A stretch of DNA of 64,000 nucleotides, from positions 6,901 to 70,900 of the forward strand of contig JAKQOW010000131.1 in NCBI GenBank assembly GCA_029565065.1, read 5' to 3'. Of this stretch, positions 6,528 through 63,373 are shown one piece after another (the stretch's first letter is position 1; every line of letters starts with the position of its first letter). Made by a program: the position numbers and the translations under genes. The notes under the pieces were generated by a model that had not been told where the DNA came from, searched no databases, and saw only the letters and a list, made by a program, of their open reading frames with translations. The DNA comes from Acidobacteriota bacterium. GTDB lineage: Bacteria > Acidobacteriota > JAAYUB01.

Positions 6528-7763
6528 ATGCTGCGACACGTGATCAGCCTGTATCGGGATGCGTTCGGGGGATTGGCCCGTGAGACCTGGGTGCTGGTGG
6601 CGGTGGCGCTCGTCAATCGCGCCGGAACCATGGTGCTGCCCTTCCTGACGCTGTATCTAACCCGGGAGCTTCGGTTCGACAAGAGCGAGGCGGGCTGGGT
6701 GATCTTCGCGTTCGGTCTCGGGTCGGTGATCGGCACCTTCGCCGGGGGCCGACTGAGCGACCGGGTGGGGGCGATCCCCGTCCAGCTCTTCAGCCTGATT
6801 GCCGGCGGGGCGGGCTTTTTGCTGCTGGGGCTGCTGCGCACGGTGCCCGCGCTCATGGCGGGTTTCGCCGCGCTGGGGATGCTGGGCGACGCGTTCCGGC
6901 CGGCCTGCATGACGGCGGTGGCCGAATCGGCGTCACCCGAGACGCGCACCCGCGCTCTGACGCTCCTCCGGATGGCCATCAATCTGGGCATTACGGTGGG
7001 GCCGCTTGTCGGGGGCATGCTGGCTCTCGTCGATTACTTCTGGCTGTTCGTGGTGGACGGGAGCACCTGCTGCCTGGCGGCCGCACTGCTCTGGGTGACG
7101 GTGGGGCGCCGGTACCGACGCCAGGGCGCCGCGGCGGCTCCGGCGGCACCGGTCTCACCCGGGCCGCCGGCGCGGAAGCGGGACTGGCCGTTCCTGGGGC
7201 TGCTGGCGGTGCTGTTCGGGCTGGCCATGGTGTTCTTCCAGACGATGGGGACGCTGCCGCTGTACTACCGGGAGCATTTCGGCCTGCTGGAAAACCGAAT
7301 TGGGATGTTGTTCGGGCTCAACGCCCTGATCATCGTGATCGTGGAGATGGTCCTCGTCCATCGGCTGCAGCAGTGCGATCATCTCCGGATGATGGGCTGG
7401 GGCTGCCTGCTGGTCTGCCTCGGCTTCGGCCTGATGCCGTGGGGCTCGGGCTGGCCGTACGCGGTTTTCACGGTGCTGGTCTGGACCGCCGGCGAGATGT
7501 TGGCGCTGCCGTTCGCCAACAGCCTGGTGGCGGCCCGCGCCGGCACGACCGACGTGGGGCGGTACATGGGGGCCTACACGGCGCTGTTCGCCGTGGCGCT
7601 GGTGATCGCACCGGCGACGGGGCTCTGGATCTACGCCCGGTTGGGCGGCACCGCCCTATGGTCCGCGGCCGGAGTGCTCGGGCTGGTCCTGTGGGCCGGG
7701 TGCGCAGCCCTGGCGCCGCGGTTCCGCGTGCACGGGCGCCCGGCCGGTCCGGCCGGGCGTTGA
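6528..7763 (+). CDS. MFS transporter
   Basis: The 411-aa product has 12 predicted TM segments. It carries MFS signatures (GxLaDRxGrr-like GGRLSDRVG after TM2) and a cytoplasmic loop between its two six-TM halves. Confidence 0.85.
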   Translation: MLRHVISLYRDAFGGLARETWVLVAVALVNRAGTMVLPFLTLYLTRELRFDKSEAGWVIFAFGLGSVIGTFAGGRLSDRVGAIPVQLFSLIAGGAGFLLLGLLRTVPALMAGFAALGMLGDAFRPACMTAVAESASPETRTRALTLLRMAINLGITVGPLVGGMLALVDYFWLFVVDGSTCCLAAALLWVTVGRRYRRQGAAAAPAAPVSPGPPARKRDWPFLGLLAVLFGLAMVFFQTMGTLPLYYREHFGLLENRIGMLFGLNALIIVIVEMVLVHRLQQCDHLRMMGWGCLLVCLGFGLMPWGSGWPYAVFTVLVWTAGEMLALPFANSLVAARAGTTDVGRYMGAYTALFAVALVIAPATGLWIYARLGGTALWSAAGVLGLVLWAGCAALAPRFRVHGRPAGPAGR

Positions 7764-20614: not shown

Positions 20615-20659
20615 CAGCCCCGCCGTCGCTCCTTAGAATCAGATCGGGTGTTTGAGCGA

Positions 20660-20830
20660 AACCGTTGACCGGTGCCCTCGGGCGAATCGGGAAAGTGGTG
20701 CGAATCCACTGCGGGCCCGCCGCTGTGACCGGGGACGAAGGCCGCACATCGCCACTGTCCGGACGGATTCCGGATGGGAAGGCGCGGCCGGAGGACGATC
20801 CGGAAGCCAGAAGACCGGCCGGTCGATGTT
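20660..20830 (+). promoter_or_regulatory. Cobalamin (AdoCbl) riboswitch
   Basis: The sequence carries the conserved core GGTGCC..GGGAAagtGGTGcgAATCCactGCgGgCCCGCcgCTGTgAcCGG, plus GCCACTG...GGGAAGGC and the B12 box AGCCAGAAGACCGGCC (20805-20820). It is followed by a GC palindrome and a T-run, a possible attenuator. It lies directly upstream of the btuF-like gene. Confidence 0.85.
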
Positions 20831-20972
20831 TTCACTGGACTCCTCGCGGAGACAGGATACAGTGATGCCCCGCTGGCTTTCCATCCTCGCTGGCCGGCCC
20901 GATGCTTTCGGGCCGGCGCTCATTGCCGGTCAAGTCAACCGCCGTTCGGCGGGACTGCCCCTGCCACGTTCC

Positions 20973-36419: not shown

Positions 36420-37388
36420 ATGGAAACCGTCAAGGTGATGCTGTATGTCCTGGTCTTTCCAGGATTCCTGTTCCAGATGATCTATTCAACCTATCTGGAA
36501 TGGGTGGACCGGAAGCTGTATGCCCGCATGCAGAACCGGCGCGGGCCCCTCTACACCGGCTGGAGCGGCGTGCTGCAGCCGGTGGCGGACATCGTCAAGC
36601 TGTTCGCCAAGGAGGATGTCACGCCGGCCGCTTCCGACAAGTTCATGTTCAACATCTTGCCGCTGGTGGCCCTGGCCTCGGCATGCACCGCAGGCCTCTA
36701 CCTGCCCGTATGGCACCTGACCGGGTACAATTCGTTCCAGGGCGACCTGATCGTGATGGTCTACCTGCTGGCCATGCCCTCGTTCGTGCTGTTCCTGGCC
36801 GGCTGGTTCTCCGTGAGCCCGTTCAGCCTCATTGGCGCCACCCGCGTGCTCACCCAGCTGTTCGCCTACGAGGTGCCGTTCTTCCTGGCCCTGCTGACCC
36901 CGGCGGTCGTGGCCGGCAGCTGGAAGATCGCCGATATCGCCAAGTACCCCTGGGCGAGCGGCAACTGGTGGGTGATCCCCCTGCAGGTGCTGGCGTTCAT
37001 CGTCGCCGTGCTGGCGCTGCAGGCCAAGCTGGAACGCGTGCCGTTCGACATCCCCGAGGCCGAGACCGAGGTGGTCGCCGGGCCGCTCACCGAGTACAGC
37101 GGCAAGAAACTGGCGGTGTTCCGGATCCAGAAAGACATTTCCATGTACGCCGGCTCCGCCCTGATCGCCGCGCTCTTTCTGGGCGGCTTCGGCGGCGGCC
37201 TGTACTTGGGCGCGCTCCAACTGGTGCTCAAAACCCTGCTGGTGGTGGCTCTGCTGAGCGTGATCCGGGGCGCCTGCGCCCGCATCCGCATCGACCAGAT
37301 CGTGTCCTTCAGCTGGCGTTACCTGGCGCCCATGAGCATCGTCCAATTCCTGATCGTGCTGCTGCTGAAGGGCGGAGGAGTGATCTAG
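36420..37388 (+). CDS. Hydrogenase membrane subunit NuoH-like (EchB/HyfC/MbhM-like)
   Basis: It has 8 TM helices and a conserved NuoH N-terminal pattern (...ERKLLARMQNRRGP..., here DRKLYARMQNRRGP). Confidence 0.9.
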   Translation: METVKVMLYVLVFPGFLFQMIYSTYLEWVDRKLYARMQNRRGPLYTGWSGVLQPVADIVKLFAKEDVTPAASDKFMFNILPLVALASACTAGLYLPVWHLTGYNSFQGDLIVMVYLLAMPSFVLFLAGWFSVSPFSLIGATRVLTQLFAYEVPFFLALLTPAVVAGSWKIADIAKYPWASGNWWVIPLQVLAFIVAVLALQAKLERVPFDIPEAETEVVAGPLTEYSGKKLAVFRIQKDISMYAGSALIAALFLGGFGGGLYLGALQLVLKTLLVVALLSVIRGACARIRIDQIVSFSWRYLAPMSIVQFLIVLLLKGGGVI

Positions 37389-37390
37389 CC

Positions 37391-37786
37391 ATGAAGAAAG
37401 TCGGACTGCTGTTGCCTGAAATGATGAGCCACCTGGCCCACAAGCCGGTTACCCGCCTCTATCCGTTCGAGAAGGTGACCGCGCCCGAGGGCTTTCGCGG
37501 CACGCCCCGGTTCAAGCCGAACAACTGCATCGGCTGCAAGGCCTGCGTTCGCGATTGCACCGCCGAAGCCATCGAGATCGACGTCCACAAAATTGATCCG
37601 CCCCCCGGCTCGCCCGAGGGGACCAAGCCGACGAAGAAGATGGTCTGCACCATCTACCTCGATCGCTGCGTGCACTGCGCCCGCTGCGTCGAAGTCTGCC
37701 CCAAGGACGCCCTGTACATGGACACGGAGTTCGAGGTGGCCAACTTCACCCGCGACGCGCTGAAAATCGTGCAGGAATCGGATTGA
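37391..37786 (+). CDS. 2x[4Fe-4S] ferredoxin subunit NuoI-like (EchF/MbhN-like)
   Basis: It has two CxxCxxCxxxCP motifs (CIGCKACVRDCTAEA ; CVHCARCVEVCP). Confidence 0.9.
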   Translation: MKKVGLLLPEMMSHLAHKPVTRLYPFEKVTAPEGFRGTPRFKPNNCIGCKACVRDCTAEAIEIDVHKIDPPPGSPEGTKPTKKMVCTIYLDRCVHCARCVEVCPKDALYMDTEFEVANFTRDALKIVQESD

Positions 37787-38313
37787 TGGACCGTCCGGCG
37801 GACCGCCTGCGCGCCCTGCTGGACGCGGCGCGCCGGGCAGACCGGAAAGTGGTTGTGTTGGGAATTGGGAACGAGCTCCTGGGCGACGACGCCGTCGGCG
37901 ATCGCGTCGCCCGGGAGCTCGCGCCGTTTAACGACCACCGTTTTGAGGCTATCCCCGCCGGCAACGCACCCGAGAACGGCGCCTACATGGTCAGTCGGGC
38001 CGCCCCCGATGTGCTGATCATCATCGACGCGGCCGGGCCGGCCGGCGGAGCAGGGGAAGGCTCCGACAGCGCCGCGCCGTGGGATTTCTATCCTGCCGAT
38101 TCACTCGACACGTTCTGCCATTCCACCCATTCGGTGCCCCTGAGCATGCTCGTGAGCGTCTGGCGGCAGGAGCGGCCGCATCTCGATGTGCGGTTCATTG
38201 GCATCGCCATCCGCGAGACTTCGTTCCTGGCGCCGCTGTCCTCGTCGGTGGACGCCATCCGCGCCGAGATCGTGGGAGTGTTCCGGTCGGCGGTGGGGGA
38301 TGGTAAACAGTGA
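37786..38313 (+). CDS. hycI: Hydrogenase maturation endopeptidase (HycI/HybD family)
   Basis: The motif VVLGIGNELLGDDAVG is present with a downstream conserved His (HSTHS). Its ATG overlaps the NuoI-like stop. It is the last gene of the hydrogenase operon. Confidence 0.85.
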   Translation: MDRPADRLRALLDAARRADRKVVVLGIGNELLGDDAVGDRVARELAPFNDHRFEAIPAGNAPENGAYMVSRAAPDVLIIIDAAGPAGGAGEGSDSAAPWDFYPADSLDTFCHSTHSVPLSMLVSVWRQERPHLDVRFIGIAIRETSFLAPLSSSVDAIRAEIVGVFRSAVGDGKQ

Positions 38314-38575
38314 ACGGTGAACGGTGAACAGTGAAGAGATAGGAGATAGGGGATAGGAGATTGGAGTGTCGAGTATAGGTGGGTTCGGGATTCGTAATCG
38401 TAATATGTAATCGTGATCGTAATCGAGGCTCAACCCTCGACCCTCAACCCTCAACCCTCGACCCTCAACCCTCAACCCTCGACCCTCAACCCTCAACCCT
38501 CGACCCTCGACCCTCGACCCTCAACCCTCGACCCTCAACCCTCAACCCTCAACCCTCAACCTCCACCCCCAATCC
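38305..38575. repeat. Heptanucleotide-periodic microsatellite tract of about 38 units, in successive blocks: (AACRGTG)x4, (AGGAGAT)x4, a CGTAAT/CGTGAT hexamer block, then about 19 copies of (R)ACCCTC
   Basis: Direct reading gives aacagtg aacggtg aacggtg aacagtg aagagat aggagat aggggat aggagat ... gtaatcgtgatcgtaatcg aggctc (aaccctc/gaccctc)x~19. It is intergenic between the hycI stop and the convergent NSS operon. Confidence 0.85.
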
Positions 38576-38778
38576 TTTTGTTCTCATCCGTGCGATCGGC
38601 GACTCGAGGCCTGGCCGCAGCGACTATCTTCAGTGGCGCGCGTTCGATGAACGCACGCCAGAAGTACCTCGGGCTAGAGGCCGCTAAGTACAGCGGGCCT
38701 CCGGTGAACGCTGCCAACTGGCGGGCAAATCTGTTGTGACGAAATATATCTGGGGCGAAGCGGGACAGGTGGCCGCGG

Positions 38779-39045
38779 TTATCGCACCACGGCGAAGATG
38801 ATGAAGAACACCAGCGCCAGGTTGATGGAGGCGATCCAGCTGTAGAAGAGGGGGCCCGTCCGGCCGGATTCGGCCCGGGTCACAGTGCGGTACCGATTGA
38901 GGTAGCTCGGGATCATCACCCGCAGCCAGATGAAGCTCACCCGCTCGCCGCGCCGGCGGAGCGCCTCGTAGAGGCACACGGCCGTCCCGACGGCCCACAG
39001 CGAGCACATCACACCCAAGCTCAGAAGAACTATTTGCGGGAACAT
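38779..39045 (-). CDS. Small membrane protein downstream of the NSS transporter (possible accessory/small subunit)
   Basis: The 88-aa product runs from ATG 39045 (MFPQIVLL...) with an AGGAGG RBS. It has two TM helices. It is co-oriented 108 nt downstream of the NSS gene. Confidence 0.5.
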   Translation of the reverse strand: MFPQIVLLSLGVMCSLWAVGTAVCLYEALRRRGERVSFIWLRVMIPSYLNRYRTVTRAESGRTGPLFYSWIASINLALVFFIIFAVVR

Positions 39046-39153
39046 GGCGGGCCTCCTGCACACCGTATCGTCGTCAAACCGATAGTTTGGCCAACCCGGC
39101 TCGGATAGCAGCGCTTGGGTCCAGTCGCCCGGCAAGACGGTGTGAGGGAGTCG

Positions 39154-40827
39154 TCAGGCGCCGTCGCTCTTGCGGCGCCAGGCCTTGTGGATCATCCAGA
39201 AGGTGATGCCGGCGAAGGCGGCCATGAGGATCCGGGCGCCCCAGAGGTACGGCTTGTCTGCCGCCGGCTTGCCGTCCATCAGCAGCTGGCCCACCGCTTC
39301 CTGCCACGTCCAGGTCGCGAGCAGCACCAGGATGTAGAGCGGGGTGATGTACTTGAGGATAAATTTGAAGATCCGCGGAACCCGCAGATCGGCCCCCTGA
39401 TGCATGTCCGCCCAGCTGCGCTCGATGCCGAAAATCCACGAAAAGATGACGATCTCGATGGCGGTGAGCACCACCAGGAAGAACGTGCCGGCCCAGAAGT
39501 CCAGCTCGTCCAAAAAGCCGTGGCGGAAGAACGCCACCACCAGCAGCGTGCTGAGGACGGCAATCCCCATGACCGTGTTGACGGCGCGCGGGCGGCGCCA
39601 GCCGAACTCGTCCTCGAGGAAGGCGACGGCCGGCTGGGCCAGCGCCACCGAGGTGGTGATGCCGGCGATGAAGAGCAGGCCGAACCACATCCCGCCGAAC
39701 AGCTCACCCATCGGGATTTGCTGGAAAATCACCGGCATGGTCTGGAAGCCCAGGTTGTAGGCGCCCTCGCCGGCGATGACCTGCGTCTCGGCCAGGCCGA
39801 AGAACGCCACGGCCACCGGGATGGCGATGGTGCCGCCCAGCACCACTTCGGCGCATTCGTTTGTCGAAGCCGTGCTCAGCCCGTTCAGGGTGACGTCATC
39901 CTGTTCCCGGAGGTACGACGCATACATGTTGATGGTGCCCTGGCCCAGGCTCAGGGTGAAGAAGATCTGTCCGGCGGCGGCCAGCCAGACCGACGCCTGG
40001 CCCAGCCGGCTCAGATCGGGGTTCCAGATGTAGGCCAGTCCCGTGGCAATACTCCAATCGGGCTGGGCCGGGTCGGGCGCGCCCAGGGTGAGCACCCGCA
40101 CCGCCAGGGCGATGCCGAACACGAAGAGCAGCGGCATGCCGATTTTTGCCAGCACCTCGATCCCCTTGGAAATGCCGCGGTAGAGGCAGAAGTAGTTGAT
40201 GGTCAGGGTCAGGGCCAGGAAGCCGAGCGCCGTCAGGATGGACGGGAAATCGGCGCTGGCCTCCACACCCTGGAAGCCGCGGAGGAACTCCCCCATGGCC
40301 GCGCGGTCGGTTTTGCCGGCGTAGCGGCCGGTCAGGGAGAACCAGGAGAACGCCATGCACCACGACTCGACGAACACGTAGTAGACCAGGATGGTGAACG
40401 GGGTCATGATCCCCAGAAAGCCGAGGTACTTGGCGGCCGGGTGCTTCCACATCGCGGCGAACATGCCGGGCGTGGTGCCGTGGCCGCGGACGCCGCCGTG
40501 GCGGCCGATGGTCCATTCCACCCACATCATCGGGATGCCCAGCAGCAGCAGGGCCAGAAAGTAGGGGATCATGAAGGCGCCGCCGCCGTTGTCAGCGGCC
40601 TGAACAGGAAAGCGCAGGAAATTGCCCAGGCCGATGGCGTTGCCCGCCATGGCCAGGATCAGTCCCACCCGGCTGGCCCACCGGTCACGGCCGGATTCGT
40701 CACCGGCGGCGAGCCCGCGCTTGCCCCCGAACAGGACGCGGGCGAAGCAGTACACCACCAGCGCGATGATCGCTCCCCACCCCAGGGTCAGGAACACCCA
40801 CCCGGCCGTGGTCAGTCCTTGGGCCAT
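39154..40827 (-). CDS. Neurotransmitter:sodium symporter (NSS/SNF, LeuT-like) family amino-acid transporter
   Basis: The N-terminus RVGLILAMAGNAIGLGNFLRFPVQAADNGGGAFMIPYFLALLLLGIPMMWVEWTIGRHGG matches LeuT TM1-TM2 nearly residue-for-residue. It has 12 TM helices. Confidence 0.9.
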   Translation of the reverse strand: MAQGLTTAGWVFLTLGWGAIIALVVYCFARVLFGGKRGLAAGDESGRDRWASRVGLILAMAGNAIGLGNFLRFPVQAADNGGGAFMIPYFLALLLLGIPMMWVEWTIGRHGGVRGHGTTPGMFAAMWKHPAAKYLGFLGIMTPFTILVYYVFVESWCMAFSWFSLTGRYAGKTDRAAMGEFLRGFQGVEASADFPSILTALGFLALTLTINYFCLYRGISKGIEVLAKIGMPLLFVFGIALAVRVLTLGAPDPAQPDWSIATGLAYIWNPDLSRLGQASVWLAAAGQIFFTLSLGQGTINMYASYLREQDDVTLNGLSTASTNECAEVVLGGTIAIPVAVAFFGLAETQVIAGEGAYNLGFQTMPVIFQQIPMGELFGGMWFGLLFIAGITTSVALAQPAVAFLEDEFGWRRPRAVNTVMGIAVLSTLLVVAFFRHGFLDELDFWAGTFFLVVLTAIEIVIFSWIFGIERSWADMHQGADLRVPRIFKFILKYITPLYILVLLATWTWQEAVGQLLMDGKPAADKPYLWGARILMAAFAGITFWMIHKAWRRKSDGA

Positions 40828-45747: not shown

Positions 45748-46506
45748 ATGCGTGGAAAGTTGATCGTCGTCACCTGCCTGATCGCCGCTCTCACCCTGAC
45801 GCTGGCCGCTGCCGGTTTCTGGGAGAAGAAACCGTATACCCAGTGGTCGGAGAAGGATGCGCGCAAGATGCTGGAGAAGTCACCGTGGTGTTACGAGTTC
45901 AACTGGGGGCGGCAGAGCAATATCGGTTCGGACGTGACCGGACCGTCGATCGGTTCAGTGCCCAGCCCGACCAGCACCCCGGCCGATGACAGCCGGGGCG
46001 TCACCGACGCCGAACGGGAATTCATCACCATCGTGCGGGTCATGCTGTTCTCCTCCCGGCCCATCCGCCAGGCGTACGCCACCCTCATCGCCAAGGGTGA
46101 CAAGGCCCGGCTGGAAAAACTGAAGGATTTCGCCGAACGCGATTTCGGCGACGAGATCGTCATCGCCTGGGTGATCGATTCCAAGCCGAAGGGCGCGACC
46201 TCGGTCTTCGACCTGGACCGCCAGCTCCGCGCCCTGGCGGTGGGCGAATTGGCCAATGATACCTTCATCGCCAGCAGCAGCGGCAAAAAGGTGTACATCA
46301 AGGATTTCATCCCGCCGACGAGCGACGGCACCGGCGCCAAGTTCGTCTTTCCGCGGACGATGCCCGACGGCACGCCGTTCCTCACCGCCGCCGACAAGAG
46401 TTTCCGCTTCCAGACGCGGAAGTTCAAGATGAAGGATGACGCGGTTGCGGTGGACGCCACCTTCAAGGTGGAGGACCTCCAACTGGCCGGTCAGCTCGAG
46501 TATTAA
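45748..46506 (+). CDS. Secreted protein of unknown function, paralog A of a tandem pair
   Basis: It has a GGGAGG RBS and a signal peptide. Conserved blocks YWEKKPYTQWSEKDARKML, TIVRVMLFSSRP, KDFAERDFGDEIVIAWV and GTGAKFVFPR are present. It is about 65-70% identical to the next gene. Confidence 0.7.
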   Translation: MRGKLIVVTCLIAALTLTLAAAGFWEKKPYTQWSEKDARKMLEKSPWCYEFNWGRQSNIGSDVTGPSIGSVPSPTSTPADDSRGVTDAEREFITIVRVMLFSSRPIRQAYATLIAKGDKARLEKLKDFAERDFGDEIVIAWVIDSKPKGATSVFDLDRQLRALAVGELANDTFIASSSGKKVYIKDFIPPTSDGTGAKFVFPRTMPDGTPFLTAADKSFRFQTRKFKMKDDAVAVDATFKVEDLQLAGQLEY

Positions 46507-46731: not shown

Positions 46732-47499
46732 ATGCGCCTGAGACTATTTATGGGGCTGATCGGACTCATCGCTCTGGCCGCCGCAACGCTGTCGGCCGCG
46801 GATTACTGGGAGAAGAAACCGTACGCGAAGTGGTCCGAGAAAGAAGCCCGTAAGATGATCATGCAATCGCCGTGGTGCGTCGAGTTCAGCTGGAGCAGCA
46901 CCGGCTCGAGCGGCGACAGCCTCACCCAGGATGCGACGGCCTATGAGCCGTCTTCGCCGGTGGGAACGGCGACGAGCCGGGGCGCCACCGACACCGTGGG
47001 CAGCGAGCGGGAAATTCTCACCATCGTCCGGGTCATGCTGTTCTCGTCGCGGCCCGTCCGCTCGGCGGTCGCCGTGCTCGCCGCGAAGGGGGATGCCGGC
47101 CGGATCGAGCGGCTGAAGGATTTCGCCGAGCGCGACTTCGGCGACGAGATCGTTGTCGCCTGGGTGCTGGATTCCAAGCCCAAGGGCGCCACGTCGGTCG
47201 CCGACCTGGACCGCCAGCTCCGCGCCCTGGCGGTGGGCGAGCTGGCCAACGAGACCTTCCTGGCCACCAGCAGCGGGAAAAAGGTGTTCCTCAAGGACTA
47301 CATCCCGCCCACGCCGGACGGCACGGGTGCCAAGTTTGTCTTCCCGCGCTTCCTGCCGGACGGCACGCCCCTGATCACCGCCGCGGACAAGACTCTGCGC
47401 TTCCAGACGAAAAAGTTCCAGATGCGCGATGACGACATCTCCGTGGATGCCACGTTCAAACTGGACAAGATGATCTTCAACGGCCAGTTGGACTACTAA
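46732..47499 (+). CDS. Secreted protein of unknown function, paralog B of a tandem pair
   Basis: It has an AAAGGAGG RBS and a signal peptide. The blocks are colinear with paralog A (YWEKKPYAKWSEKEARKMI ... GTGAKFVFPR...). Confidence 0.7.
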   Translation: MRLRLFMGLIGLIALAAATLSAADYWEKKPYAKWSEKEARKMIMQSPWCVEFSWSSTGSSGDSLTQDATAYEPSSPVGTATSRGATDTVGSEREILTIVRVMLFSSRPVRSAVAVLAAKGDAGRIERLKDFAERDFGDEIVVAWVLDSKPKGATSVADLDRQLRALAVGELANETFLATSSGKKVFLKDYIPPTPDGTGAKFVFPRFLPDGTPLITAADKTLRFQTKKFQMRDDDISVDATFKLDKMIFNGQLDY

Positions 47500-62844: not shown

Positions 62845-63005
62845 TCGTAAGTCGTAATCGTGATCGTAATCGTAATCGAGGCTCGGGACTCGGAGCTTGT
62901 TCCCGAACATCGGACAGCGGACCACGGACTTTCCAACCTCCCAACCTTCCAACCTTTCAACCTTCCAACCTTTCAACCTTTCAACCTTCCAACCTTCCAA
63001 CCATT
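62845..63005. repeat. Composite microsatellite: (CGTAAT/CGTGAT) hexamer block sharing a about 30-nt core with the 38.4-kb locus, then about 9 copies of an octamer (TTCCAACC / TTTCAACC)
   Basis: Direct reading gives gtcgtaatcgtgatcgtaatcgtaatcgaggctcgggactcgga... ttccaacc tcccaacc ttccaacc tttcaacc ttccaacc tttcaacc tttcaacc ttccaacc ttccaacc. It is intergenic between the M48 gene and the protease-like gene. Confidence 0.85.
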
Positions 63006-63373
63006 GAACAATCCTCAGAACAATAGCTGAAAAGTCCACTCGGTCGCGCAGGCAGTCTGTCCGAAGATGAGGGTTCCTGCAGACGGCTCGCGCTCGACGA
63101 GTCATGTTATTCCACGACAGGTCATCCCCCGTCAACGAACACTCGTCCCGTCCTGATCTCCTCTGGGAACCTCCCCTTGAGATGTTTCCGCCGGTTCTCG
63201 TACTAAATGCCAGCAGTCGATCCCACCCACGCCCCGGACGGCCTGGAAATGGAAAGCCGCCGCGGGGCCCAAAGGCCGGATCCGCACCCGGCCGGGAGGA
63301 AGCCGTGGAGATAACGGTGATAGGGGAGCGAACGATCGGTGCCCGGGTATGGCGACGGTGCTTCATCGGGGGG

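What the first reader, a model, noticed from the sequence alone, without database searches (positions are those of the whole stretch)
38305..38575. A 270-nt intergenic tract with strict 7-nt periodicity built from successive different heptamer microsatellites
Read in register, the tract is AACAGTG AACGGTG AACGGTG AACAGTG / AAGAGAT AGGAGAT AGGGGAT AGGAGAT / a TCGTAAT-type block / about 19 copies of (A/G)ACCCTC. Such long heptad-periodic simple-sequence arrays are rare in bacterial chromosomes and strongly prone to slipped-strand mispairing. It sits in the convergent terminator zone between the hydrogenase operon and the NSS transporter operon. It could act as a recombination/phase-variation hot spot, or be a footprint of a small mobile element.
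Basis: seen in the sequence. Interest (0 to 1): 0.55.

Follow-up and report, generated by a model that had tools for sequence, protein, structure and literature searches.

The report
Clade-wide modular trains of short repeats
The tract is a real, non-coding chain of short tandem repeats; it is one copy of a repeat family found dozens to hundreds of times in a narrow group of uncultured digester Acidobacteriota, its copy numbers differ between strains, and its function is unknown.

Summary
The tract is real, at window 38302-38576. It has four blocks: GGTGAAC x4.9, GAGATAG x4.4, TCGTAA x5.5 and RACCCTC x18 perfect units (TRF 21.3). The periodicity is not strictly 7. The third block is hexameric, a 25-nt spacer is aperiodic, and the register shifts. 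The first block also covers the last codons and stop codon of the hydrogenase maturation protease gene.

It is not a one-off. A 21-nt junction (TCGTRATCGTAATCGAGGCTC) recurs at window 62864. In 596 Gb of genomes it is found almost only in two related Acidobacteriota MAGs from anaerobic digesters (43 and 31 copies).

Around that junction, about 15 unit types of 6-8 nt lie in a fixed polar order. G/purine-rich, stop-containing units come first, then the TCGTAA-CGAGGCT core, then C-rich units. Arrays typically have about 4 copies.

The train at this locus is ancestral to at least five related populations, and every block changes by whole units. The RACCCTC array has 2-4, 15 or 18 units in strains whose flanks are 98-99.97% identical.

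Trains also coincide with inversion breakpoints. There is no sign of coding, of phase variation of the flanking genes, or of assembly artefact.

The closest known kinds are heptameric long simple sequence repeats (SSRs): cyanobacterial STRR, Xanthomonas GGGNATC and Geobacter 4x heptamers. The fixed-order modular grammar appears to be new. Function is unresolved; a role in termination or insulation is possible.

The parts
37786..38313 (+). Hydrogenase maturation protease gene (175 aa), last gene of the membrane [NiFe]-hydrogenase operon. Its last 3 codons and TGA stop lie inside the first repeat block.
   Evidence: ORF. Homologues are 175 aa and are named hydrogenase maturation protease by NCBI/JGI. 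Translation of the 3' end is.
38302..38335 (+). Block A: GGTGAAC/AGTGAAC heptamers x4.9. Purine-rich, with stop codons in all three + frames.
   Evidence: TRF. Lag-7 identity 0.85 and frame translations. 4 units here, 5 in L001/L057, 2-3 in L009-L011/L080-L083.
38336..38366 (+). Block B: GAGATAG (AGGAGAT) heptamers x4.4. It carries an AGGAG-like motif and a TAG in most units.
   Evidence: TRF. Lag-7 identity 0.88. Upstream of the core in 12 of 13 related trains.
38367..38391 (+). Aperiodic 25-nt spacer.
   Evidence: No lag from 3 to 10 exceeds 0.40.
38392..38425 (+). Block C: TCGTAA hexamers x5.5 (not heptamers). Left half of the conserved core.
   Evidence: TRF period 6. Lag-6 identity 0.68 against lag-7 0.26. 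54 such arrays in relatives.
38411..38431 (+). Family-defining junction 21-mer TCGTGATCGTAATCGAGGCTC: end of the TCGTAA array plus a single CGAGGCT unit.
   Evidence: Position. 81 matches in all. 43 are in MAG AnMBR.bin219, 31 in Go_SlDig_bin_198, 2 in the window and 5 on contigs assigned to four other MAGs. None in viral contigs.
38432..38557 (+). Block K: 18 perfect (A/G)ACCCTC heptamers with first-base string AGAAGAAGAAGGGAGAAA. TRF extends the array to 38429-38576. On the - strand it reads (GAGGGTY)n, with 19 GGG tracts.
   Evidence: C 57%, G 5%. Alleles of 18, 15, 4, 3-4 and 2 units. Four non-overlapping G-quadruplex (G4) motifs here, against two elsewhere in 64 kb.
38558..38600 (+). Degenerate C-rich, G-poor tail (AACCTCCACCCCCAATCCTTTTGTTCTCATCC...). 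A C-rich tail follows the core in all alleles.
38635..38659 (.). Imperfect palindrome GGCGCGCGTTCGATGAACGCACGCC. It forms a hairpin without a T-run. Similar palindromes occur in relatives.
   Evidence: Sequence. Predicted hairpin. Related copies seen in L004 and L078.
38779..39045 (-). 88-aa ORF with no Pfam match, convergent with the hydrogenase operon. An identical protein is on 19 public contigs.
39154..40827 (-). SNF/NSS-family transporter gene.
   Evidence: Pfam PF00209, E=2.3e-53.
62845..63009 (+). Second train of the same family: TCGTAA x5.5, the same junction (62864-62884), then gggactcggagcttgttccc and degenerate CGGAC-type units (acatcggacagcggaccacggac), then TTCCAACC octamers x9. 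It lies downstream of an M48 peptidase gene.

Best explanation
The tract is one copy of a clade-specific, dispersed, modular simple-sequence element, which I call an 'SSR train'.

A train is a chain of short arrays of 6-8-nt units, typically about 4 copies each, laid out in a fixed 5'-to-3' order. G/purine-rich units that contain stop codons come first (here GTGAACR, then GGAGATA). Next is a conserved core, (TCGTAA)n followed by CGAGGCT units. C-rich units come last (here RACCCTC).

This copy is non-coding and lies at the 3' ends of two convergent operons. It was already present at this locus in the common ancestor of at least five related Acidobacteriota populations. This is shown by the orthologous loci.

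It evolves by gain and loss of whole units. This is shown by the allele differences. The mechanism, replication slippage or unequal exchange, is inferred. The RACCCTC array is the hypervariable part, with 2-4, 15 or 18 units in strains whose flanks are 98-99.97% identical.

Neighbouring unit types differ by only 1-3 substitutions. Each train therefore looks like a single periodic tract in which mutated units were re-amplified (inferred). The shared order and shared junction across many loci imply spread from a common template, by duplication or recombination (inferred; no mobility machinery was found).

It is not a genetic switch for the flanking genes. My best reading is a largely neutral or selfish, slippage-inflated repeat that is tolerated in intergenic DNA. 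Its physical properties may secondarily help to end or insulate convergent transcription. These properties are stops in all frames just after the gene, then an unstructured C-rich/G-poor RNA, and a G-quadruplex-prone opposite strand.
For: Reality and composition.

Family:
- The junction 21-mer has 81 matches. 76 are in the window and two related digester Acidobacteriota MAGs.
- There are none in viral contigs.
- No arrays were found in 46 kb from more distant relatives, whose protease is 45-51% identical.

Fixed order relative to the junction:
- GTGAACA upstream in 8 of 8 arrays.
- GGAGATA upstream in 12 of 13.
- TCGTAA at a median of -23 nt, CGAGGCT at +7.
- CCCGTCT downstream in 12 of 12.
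- CACCSATT downstream in 15 of 18.

Polarity: mean GC skew is +0.21 on the left of the junction and -0.24 on the right.

Vocabulary and copy number: period 7 dominates, about 15 unit types recur, and the commonest copy number is 4 (130 of 358 arrays).

Orthology and unit-wise polymorphism at this locus. Flank identities run from 86% to 99.97%.

Not coding:
- No Pfam hits for the overlapping ORFs.
- Their GC3 is 0.54-0.65, against 0.85-0.91 in real genes.
- No gene was called there in public assemblies.
- Length differences between alleles are not multiples of 3.

Not an artefact: the 18-unit allele recurs in a JGI contig, L089, with 1 mismatch in 3267 nt. Other alleles come from independent NCBI, JGI, ENA and Logan assemblies.

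No excess conservation: the aligned train is 84.5% identical between the window and L004, against 78% at four-fold degenerate sites. This is compatible with near-neutral descent.
Against: - No transposase, terminal inverted repeat, target-site duplication or clean empty site was found, so the means of dispersal is unknown.
- A fixed order, a preferred copy number of about 4, and strong strand rules could instead reflect function. Arrays starting within -20 to +40 nt of a stop codon are G>C on the sense strand in 37 cases against 4.
- The core is co-oriented with the upstream gene in 40 cases against 15.
- Copy numbers of 100-150-nt arrays in short-read assemblies can be collapsed. Several contigs end inside arrays.
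- My gene calls for the context statistics are crude, based on GC3.
- The density estimate in relatives comes from loci chosen because they contain a train.
Confidence: 0.65

Rival explanations
1. Bidirectional terminator or insulator between convergent operons. After the stop codon, the purine-rich arrays release any read-through ribosomes, because they carry stops in all frames. The distal C-rich, G-poor, unstructured RNA, (AACCCUC)18, then loads Rho. The G-rich template strand, (GAGGGTY)n, can form G-quadruplexes that stall RNA polymerase. The hairpins at 38635-38702 act as pause sites. Because the polarity is purine-rich then pyrimidine-rich on both strands, the same logic applies from either direction.
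For: - No intrinsic terminator-like site in 38100-39200.
- The array is 57% C and 5% G over 145 nt.
- The + strand RNA folds worse than all 100 shuffles, z=+2.64.
- Every allele keeps a C-rich, G-poor stretch of 40-160 nt after the core, even where the unit differs (AACCCTC versus CCCAAT).
- Stop-proximal arrays are G>C on the sense strand in 37 cases against 4, and most carry stops.
- The skew flips from +0.21 to -0.24 across the core.
- The - strand has 19 GGG tracts and 4 G4 motifs.
- Related GGGNATC heptamers form G4 in vitro and lie within 50 bp after stop codons (PMC4692102).
- The requirements for a Rho loading site are from my own knowledge.
Against: - Several related trains lie downstream of a canonical hairpin plus T-run terminator (L016, L021, L058, L071).
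- 8 of 45 trains with both neighbours called lie between divergent genes.
- Alleles with only 2-4 RACCCTC units exist in the same species.
- The train is no more conserved than synonymous sites.
- No transcript data are available, and the presence of Rho in this clade was not checked.
Confidence: 0.2
2. A true miniature mobile element (MITE-like). Its arms are made of tandem units that are roughly inverted copies of each other. GGTGAAC on the left matches the complement of CACCGATT on the right, and GGAGATA matches the complement of CCCGTCT. A transposase encoded elsewhere would move it.
For: - Dozens of copies of the core per genome in varied gene contexts.
- Left-arm and right-arm unit types are near-complements.
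- Whole modules are present or absent between orthologous sites (L043 versus L074).
- Other small repeats, including one with 31-bp terminal inverted repeats, are nested in trains.
Against: - No defined ends, target duplications or empty sites were found.
- Arm unit types within a single train are often not complementary. Here GTGAACR and GAGATAG are paired with AACCCTC.
- The copy at this locus is ancestral rather than a recent insertion.
- No copies in viral contigs.
Confidence: 0.12
3. Arrays of binding sites for clade-specific nucleic-acid-binding proteins. Each unit of about 7 nt would be one site and about 4 units one functional quantum. Candidates are cold-shock-domain, S1 or CsrA-type RNA binders, or a global DNA-binding regulator or nucleoid protein.
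For: - The commonest copy number is 4 for G-rich and non-G-rich units alike.
- The same preference is reported for Xanthomonas/Nostoc repeats (PMC4692102) and for Geobacter metallireducens '4x heptamer' families, including paired sites on opposite strands that were read as regulator sites (PMC2700814).
- GGA or AGGAG motifs recur every 7 nt in the GGAGATA, CATCGGA and CCTGGGA arrays.
- Csp, S1 and CsrA were proposed as binders of TAACTGA repeats (PMC4679880).
Against: - No binding protein has been identified.
- About 15 different unit types would need many binders or very loose specificity.
- The mode at 4 may be a mutational equilibrium combined with TRF's detection floor.
- There is no excess conservation.
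Confidence: 0.08
4. A phase-variation (contingency) switch, in which changes in unit number turn the hydrogenase operon or the transporter operon on and off.
For: Copy number does vary between strains. The first block overlaps the protease stop codon.
Against: - The tract is 3' of both gene sets.
- The stop codon is in the first unit, and stops follow in all three frames, so a 7-nt change alters at most a few C-terminal residues.
- No promoter-like site in the zone.
- The variable block, RACCCTC, is 119 nt beyond the stop codon.
Confidence: 0.03
5. An assembly artefact, or a protein-coding repeat. These are the first reader's two refutation conditions.
For: Short-read assemblers break or collapse at these arrays; contigs L011, L084, L090, L091 and L093 end inside them. 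The + strand of the RACCCTC array is open in all three frames.
Against: - The same composite tract appears in independent NCBI, JGI, ENA and Logan assemblies, including an 18-unit copy with 1 mismatch in 3267 nt.
- The overlapping ORFs have no Pfam hits, non-coding GC3 and no gene calls.
- Allele lengths differ by 98 nt between the 18-unit and 4-unit alleles.
Confidence: 0.02

Closest known systems
Long simple sequence repeats with heptanucleotide units (Mrazek et al. 2007, as summarised in PMC4679880 and PMC4692102)
   Same: Tandem 5-11-nt units, mostly heptamers. They are over-represented in intergenic DNA of large, high-GC, non-pathogen genomes. They change in 7-nt steps. Polymerase slippage has been proposed as the cause. 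Function is unknown.
   Different: Here about 15 unit types are chained in a fixed polar order around a conserved non-array junction, and the whole composite is dispersed. Hexamers and octamers are part of the same system.
G-quadruplex-forming GGGNATC / GGGGA(C/T)T repeats of Xanthomonas and Nostoc (Rehm et al. 2015, PMC4692102)
   Same: Heptamers with one G3 tract per unit, a preference for 4 units and a range up to 26. G-rich on the sense strand just after stop codons and C-rich on the sense strand upstream of starts. Orthologous positions are kept but lengths vary between relatives. No regulatory role has been found.
   Different: The unit sequences and host phylum differ. The G3-bearing array here, GAGGGTY, is one module among many, and the non-G-rich units follow the same rules. 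This array has 18 units and starts 203 nt from the - strand stop codon.
Cyanobacterial STRR heptamers (Mazel et al. 1990; mentioned in PMC2670836 and PMC4692102)
   Same: Several different heptamers are tandemly amplified in intergenic DNA. This includes sites between hydrogenase genes (hupS-hupL) and near hoxW. Roles in transcript stability, translational coupling or pausing have been suggested. In Microcystis, different heptamers occur mixed together (PMC4679880).
   Different: A different phylum and different units. From memory, STRR3 is CAACAGT, against GAACAGT here, which is a one-base resemblance that I did not test. As far as I found, no fixed multi-array grammar or conserved core has been described.
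Geobacter metallireducens multicopy '4x heptanucleotide' families and paired tandem-repeat sites (Aklujkar et al. 2009, PMC2700814)
   Same: Families of 16-49 copies made of 3-5 tandem units of 7-9 nt (GGGACCG, TCTCCGTS(Y), MTYCTGA). Some are paired on opposite strands at variable distance, like the two arms here. Insertion sequences are found next to them.
   Different: Those are single-array elements interpreted as regulator sites. The unit sequences differ, and they do not form a chain of many arrays.
TAACTGA repeats of Beggiatoaceae, cyanobacteria and Bacteroidetes (MacGregor 2015, PMC4679880)
   Same: Intergenic heptamer arrays of 2-43 copies with strain-specific indels in 7-nt steps. Csp, S1 or CsrA-type binders have been proposed.
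   Different: That system has a single unit type, mostly just upstream of start codons. Here the bias is towards gene 3' ends and there are many unit types.
Mosaic extragenic repeats: E. coli BIMEs/REP and pneumococcal BOX elements (own knowledge)
   Same: Dispersed intergenic elements built from a small set of modules in a stereotyped order, with one module in variable tandem copy number (boxB). They are often found at operon 3' ends.
   Different: Their modules are 20-60-nt palindromic or structured units, not 6-8-nt microsatellites. REPs are moved by RAYT transposases, and nothing comparable was found here.

Membership tests
Long SSR / heptameric microsatellite | Head-to-tail repeats of a 5-11-nt unit, longer than chance allows | tested here: met
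   TRF score 219 with 21.3 copies. 16 pattern matches against 0.00 expected. Lag-7 identity 0.85-0.88.
Long SSR / heptameric microsatellite | Length polymorphism in whole units between related genomes | tested here: met
   Differences of one or more whole 7-nt or 6-nt units in blocks A, C and K among alleles. Short-read collapse is a caveat.
   Block C has period 6, the spacer is aperiodic, and the block phases are 0, 0, 3 and 1.
SSR-train family of this clade (defined here) | Junction TCGTRATCGTAATCGAGGCTC, with purine-rich arrays upstream and C-rich arrays downstream in the family order | tested here: met
   Junction at 38411-38431. The order GTGAACR, GGAGATA, TCGTAA, CGAGGCT, C-rich array matches the order statistics from 81 junctions.
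G-quadruplex-forming heptamer repeats (Rehm et al. type) | At least 4 consecutive G3 tracts with loops of 7 nt or less | tested here: met
   19 GGG tracts and 4 non-overlapping G4 motifs on the - strand at 38448-38555. Actual folding was not tested.
G-quadruplex-forming heptamer repeats (Rehm et al. type) | Unit GGGNATC or GGGGAYT, about 4 units, within 50 bp of an ORF end | tested here: not met
   The unit is GAGGGTY with 18 units. It lies 203 nt from the - strand stop and 119 nt from the + strand stop.
Cyanobacterial STRR | STRR1-3 unit sequences, in heterocystous cyanobacteria | tested here: not met
   The host is Acidobacteriota. The units differ; the STRR sequences are recalled from memory and were not re-read.
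Phase-variable contingency locus | SSR inside the 5' coding region or promoter, so that unit changes switch expression | tested here: not met
   The tract is 3' of both convergent gene sets, stops occur in all frames, and there is no promoter-like site.
MITE | Terminal inverted repeats and target-site duplication, with insertion polymorphism | tested here: inconclusive
   Arm unit types are near-complementary at family level but not within this copy. No target duplication or empty site was found. Modular presence or absence is seen at L043/L074.
REP/BIME | 20-40-nt imperfect palindromic units | tested here: not met
   The arrays are direct repeats. The + RNA is less structured than shuffles, z=+2.64. 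A separate palindrome lies outside the tract at 38635-38659.
Rho-dependent terminator (rut site) | At least 70-80 nt of C-rich, G-poor, unstructured RNA downstream of the stop codon | tested here: met
   145 nt with 57% C and 5% G; fold z=+2.64. This is a test of composition only.
Rho-dependent terminator (rut site) | Rho-dependent 3' ends in vivo | not testable with these tools
   No transcript data are available, and the organism is uncultured.
Known RNA family (Rfam) | Match at the gathering score | tested here: not met
   The only hit in the window is a cobalamin riboswitch at 20653-20837. There are no hits in five related loci.
Protein-coding repeat | Coding-type codon bias, homologues, and frame-preserving variation | tested here: not met
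   No Pfam hits. GC3 is 0.54-0.65 against 0.85-0.91 in real genes. A 98-nt allele difference exists. A search for protein homologues of the ORFs was not run.

The most novel reading that the evidence does not exclude
The trains are a previously undescribed kind of modular genomic element. A microsatellite 'grammar' of about 15 units of 6-8 nt, about 4 copies each, lies in a fixed purine-rich to pyrimidine-rich order around a conserved core. In this reading the grammar is maintained because it works. It would act as a bidirectional transcription stop or insulator (stops in all frames, a Rho-loading C-rich RNA, a G4 on the template strand), or as a multi-protein binding platform. It would then be a functional alternative to hairpin terminators in this high-GC clade. 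It would also offer a way into the long-open question of why heptamer repeats of about four units recur in cyanobacteria, Xanthomonas and Geobacter.
Probability: 0.2. Interest if true: 0.7.

Novelty: new variant of a known kind. Interest (0 to 1): 0.45.

Why it matters
Heptameric long SSRs have been known in several bacterial phyla since 1990 without an accepted function.

This clade is an unusually rich case, with dozens to probably hundreds of composite trains per genome. They share a vocabulary, a fixed order, strand rules relative to genes and a preferred array size of about 4 units. These regularities can separate a purely mutational origin from a functional one, using long reads, metatranscriptomes and reporter assays.

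There are also practical consequences:
- The trains break short-read assemblies of these digester Acidobacteriota.
- They provide hypervariable markers for strain tracking in bioreactors.
- They coincide with rearrangement breakpoints.

For the specific tract, the outcome is sobering. It is a real and unusually expanded member of the family, not a switch controlling the hydrogenase or the transporter.

Tried and rejected
- Rfam at gathering score found nothing at the tract in the window, and nothing in five related loci.
- Promoter and terminator scans of 38100-39200 found nothing.
- RNA folding gave no stable structure on either strand, with z=+2.64 and z=+0.80. A structured-RNA reading was dropped.
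- Pfam found nothing for the three ORFs that overlap the tract.
- The conservation test gave 84.5% in the train against 78% at four-fold sites, so there is no clear signal of selection.
- My own hairpin plus T-run scan over 544 kb was too permissive to use. It gave 262 sites, many inside genes, and only 29 of 366 gene ends had one. I did not build on it.
- The metagenome scan with a locus-specific 21-mer returned only a contig already in hand.
- The viral-contig scan returned nothing.
- A 45-nt module (CTGCCAA-N3-TTGGCAG...GGGAGTAACTGAGTAATCG) and a GC-rich multi-hairpin element abut some trains. I checked them as possible carriers of the trains. They have no Rfam match and no obvious link, so I left them as side observations.
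- A small stem-loop in the CGTTCCC...CGGAC linker, judged by eye, is not supported by consistent pairing across copies.
- The idea that arms pair within a train was rejected, because arm types are often mismatched within one train.
- Repeated transposon insertion and excision leaving 7-bp duplications was considered. I rejected it from general knowledge of bacterial transposition, and did not test it.
Full report
1. THE OBSERVATION

Tandem Repeats Finder gives four blocks:
- GGTGAAC x4.9 at 38302-38335.
- GAGATAG x4.4 at 38336-38366.
- TCGTAA x5.5 at 38392-38425.
- CTCAACC x21.3 at 38429-38576, score 219.

From 38432 there are 18 perfect (A/G)ACCCTC units, with first-base string AGAAGAAGAAGGGAGAAA. 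Degenerate C-rich units follow.

Chance is excluded. A three-unit pattern matches 16 times against 0.00 expected in shuffles. Lag-7 self-identity is 0.85-0.88 in three blocks, against 0.25 in control sequence.

Three details of the description are wrong:
- The third block is hexameric (lag-6 identity 0.68, lag-7 0.26).
- Positions 38367-38391 are aperiodic, and the blocks are not in one register (phases 0, 0, 3, 1).
- The first block contains the last three codons and the TGA stop of the upstream gene.

A complex-I-like membrane [NiFe] hydrogenase operon, ending in a 175-aa maturation protease, lies on the + strand. An 88-aa ORF and an SNF/NSS transporter lie on the - strand.

2. IT IS NOT A ONE-OFF

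TRF shows a second composite tract at 62845-63009, with TCGTAA x5.5 followed by TTCCAACC x9. It shares a non-array junction with the first tract...TCGTRATCGTAATCGAGGCTC.

Scanning that 21-mer against one genome per species (596 Gb) gave 67 stretches. With the window's two copies, that is 81 matches:
- 43 on the 5.0-Mb contig of Acidobacteriota MAG AnMBR.bin219.
- 31 in Acidobacteria MAG Go_SlDig_bin_198.
- 5 on contigs assigned to four other MAGs. One of these, L056, is near-identical to a Go_SlDig locus and so is probably mis-binned. Another, L014, has no arrays.

There were no matches in viral contigs. No such arrays were found in 46 kb around the same hydrogenase operon in more distant relatives, whose protease is 45-51% identical. 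The family is therefore confined to a narrow clade of uncultured bacteria. The two main MAGs are named as coming from anaerobic digesters.

3. ANATOMY OF THE FAMILY

I analysed 544 kb, made up of the window and loci L012-L078.

Periods and units:
- Period 7 dominates, with 320 arrays plus 115 of period 14.
- A hexamer is also common (TCGTAA, 54 arrays), as are octamers (CACCSATT, 40 arrays; TTCCAACC, 5).
- About 15 unit types recur.

Relative to the oriented junction, the unit types lie in a fixed order:
- GTGAACA: upstream in 8 of 8, median -158 nt.
- GGAGATA: upstream in 12 of 13, median -93.
- TCGTAA: median -23.
- CGAGGCT: median +7.
- CATCGGA: about +35.
- CCTGGGA, CAACCAT and CGGGGTT: about +75.
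- CCCGTCT: downstream in 12 of 12, median +145.
- CACCSATT: downstream in 15 of 18, median +162.

Polarity and symmetry:
- Mean GC skew is +0.21 at -75 nt and -0.24 at +125 to +175 nt.
- GC content falls to 0.44-0.59, against 0.67 in the flanks.
- A pattern of purine-rich then pyrimidine-rich is its own reverse complement, so it looks the same from both strands.
- Right-arm units are near-complements of left-arm units. GGTGAATC matches GGTGAAC with a one-base insertion, and GGGAGAC matches AGGAGAT at 5 of 7 positions.
- The same unit can occur on either side, in the orientation that keeps the polarity. GAGGGTT occurs upstream in L016 and L019, and AACCCTC occurs downstream here.

Other regularities:
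- Adjacent unit types differ by 1-3 substitutions, for example CGGACAT, CGGACCT, GGGACCT, GGGTTCT.
- The commonest copy number is 4 (130 of 358 arrays) for all unit types.
- The window's RACCCTC array is the second longest of about 430 arrays. Other AACCCTC arrays reach at most 5.7 copies.

4. RELATION TO GENES

These statistics rest on crude gene calls based on GC3.
- With both neighbours called, trains lie between convergent genes (16), tandem genes (21) and divergent genes (8).
- The core is co-oriented with the gene on its left in 40 cases against 15.
- Arrays that start within -20 to +40 nt of a stop codon are G>C on that gene's sense strand in 37 cases against 4. They are purine-rich in 42 against 2, and most carry stop codons in tandem.

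This is the same rule that Rehm et al. reported for GGGNATC repeats (PMC4692102).

5. HISTORY OF THIS LOCUS

Orthologous loci were recovered at several distances. Flank nucleotide identity ranges from 99.97% to 86%. All have the order GTGAACR, then GGAGATA-like units, then TCGTAA(T), then a C-rich stretch, directly after the protease stop. The train therefore predates their divergence.

Every block varies by whole units:
- GTGAACR has 4 units in the window, 5 in L001 and L057, 2 against 3 in L009 and L011, and 3 against 2 in L080 and L082.
- TCGTAA differs by one unit between L003 and L004.
- TCGTAAT has 3 units in L080 and 4 in L082.
- RACCCTC has 18 units in the window and in L089, which has 1 mismatch in 3267 nt.
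- RACCCTC has 15 units in L001 and L002, whose flanks are 99.0% and 97.9% identical.
- RACCCTC has 4 units in L092 (flanks 99.1-99.5% identical) and 2 in L090 (99.7% identical). L090's contig starts in the TCGTAA block just upstream.
- RACCCTC has 3-4 units in L057.

The 4-unit allele is not a simple k=31 collapse of the 15-unit or 18-unit alleles. This rests on my own k-mer reasoning from the sequences. Short-read collapse remains a caveat, and several contigs end inside arrays.

Between the window and L004, the aligned train is 84.5% identical, against 78% at four-fold degenerate sites. There is no clear excess conservation.

6. REARRANGEMENTS

Two of the syntenic locus pairs between the two MAGs change orientation exactly at trains:
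- L024/L065, where a gene flanked by inverted trains is inverted.
- L035/L049.

L043 and L074 differ by whole modules at one site. In AnMBR.bin219 the locus studied here has also gained CGAGGCT units, a small element with 31-bp terminal inverted repeats, and a second TCGTAA block. Gene order at this particular locus is conserved.

7. WHAT IT IS NOT

- Not coding. The overlapping ORFs have no Pfam hit, their GC3 is 0.54-0.65 against 0.85-0.91 in real genes, public assemblies call no gene there, and allele lengths differ by amounts that are not multiples of 3.
- Not an assembly artefact, because independent assemblies agree.
- Not a known RNA family.
- Not a structured RNA, with z=+2.64 and z=+0.80.
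- Not a phase switch. It lies 3' of both gene sets, stops occur in all frames after the first unit, and there is no promoter-like site.

8. HOW IT MOST LIKELY WORKS

Shown:
- It is a dispersed family with a fixed grammar.
- Alleles differ by whole units.
- This locus is ancestral.
- Trains coincide with breakpoints.

Inferred:
- Slippage or unequal exchange inflates and deflates each unit.
- Mutated units are re-amplified into new arrays.
- Copies spread from a common template by duplication or recombination.

I rate 'largely neutral or selfish, slippage-inflated modular repeat tolerated in intergenic DNA' at 0.65.

The main functional rival, at 0.2, is a bidirectional terminator or insulator.

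In its favour:
- The zone has no hairpin terminator.
- The RACCCTC RNA is 57% C, 5% G and unstructured, which is Rho-loading-like by composition.
- All alleles keep a C-rich, G-poor stretch at this position, even where the unit differs.
- The opposite strand has 19 GGG tracts.

Against it:
- Some trains follow canonical terminators.
- Some trains lie between divergent genes.
- Alleles with 2-4 units exist.

A true MITE (0.12) and protein-binding arrays (0.08) remain open.

9. COMPARISON WITH KNOWN KINDS

The tract belongs to the known class of heptameric long SSRs. It behaves like four described systems:
- Cyanobacterial STRRs.
- Xanthomonas and Nostoc GGGNATC repeats, which also prefer 4 units and show the same strand rule after stop codons.
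- TAACTGA repeats.
- The Geobacter metallireducens '4x heptamer' and paired-site families (PMC4692102, PMC4679880, PMC2700814, PMC2670836).

It is not a member of any of these by unit sequence or host. Three full-text literature searches turned up nothing on the chaining of many unit types in a fixed polar order around a conserved core, dispersed through a genome. I also found no report for Acidobacteriota. The nearest architectural analogies are E. coli BIMEs and pneumococcal BOX elements (my own knowledge).

10. VERDICT

It is wrong on phase variation.

Novelty: a new variant of a known kind. Interest: 0.45.

Noticed in passing
L004 ~6846-7096; also L025, L027, L071, L074, L078: A small MITE-like element with perfect 31-bp terminal inverted repeats (GGAGGTACCGCGAGCGGCAGCGAGCGGCGCG ... 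CGCGCCGCTCGCTGCCGCTCGCGGTACCTCC) is nested inside trains in the AnMBR.bin219 genome. It is absent from the window's copy of the locus.
   Followed up: partly
L020, L021, L042, L062, L070, L073, L078, L027, L004 (positions): A ~45-nt module, AAAATCCTGCCAAAAATTGGCAGAAAATCGGGAGTAACTGAGTAATCG, contains the palindrome CTGCCAA-N3-TTGGCAG and directly abuts TCGTAA arrays. It follows either the MITE-like element or a ~250-nt GC-rich multi-hairpin repeat. Rfam has no match.
   Followed up: partly
window 38635-38659 and 38676-38702: Two hairpin-forming imperfect palindromes without T-runs lie between the tract and the 88-aa ORF. The first is CGCGTTCGATGAACGCA-type. Similar CGCGTTCGA(C/T)GAACGCG palindromes occur in L004 and L078, so they may be a REP-like family.
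   Followed up: no
window 20653-20837 (+): Cobalamin riboswitch, 120 bits, the only Rfam hit in the window.
   Followed up: no
window 45799-46310 vs 46786-47303: A tandem duplication with ~990-nt spacing and 76-82% identity, probably two adjacent paralogous genes.
   Followed up: no
L011, L084, L090, L091, L093 (contig ends): Short-read contigs of this clade repeatedly end inside the arrays. The trains are therefore a systematic cause of MAG fragmentation, and copy numbers from such assemblies are uncertain.
   Followed up: partly
L024 2364-2620 and 4242-4451 vs L065 5297-5523 and 7214-7242: A 1.7-kb gene flanked by two trains in inverted orientation has the opposite orientation in the two related MAGs. 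Synteny is lost beyond the second train.
   Followed up: partly
L009-L011 and L080-L083 vs window 38779-39045: The 88-aa ORF between the tract and the SNF transporter is absent in two of the related populations, where the train abuts the transporter's 3' end. AnMBR.bin219-type contigs carry an 87-aa version, plus in some gene calls an extra 88-aa ORF inside the inserted region.
   Followed up: no
L089 (JGI 3300009669, Ga0116148_1000023, 160 kb): A public metagenome contig matches window 37279-40545 with 1 mismatch in 3267 nt, including the 18-unit array. It is probably the same population as the window's source.
   Followed up: yes
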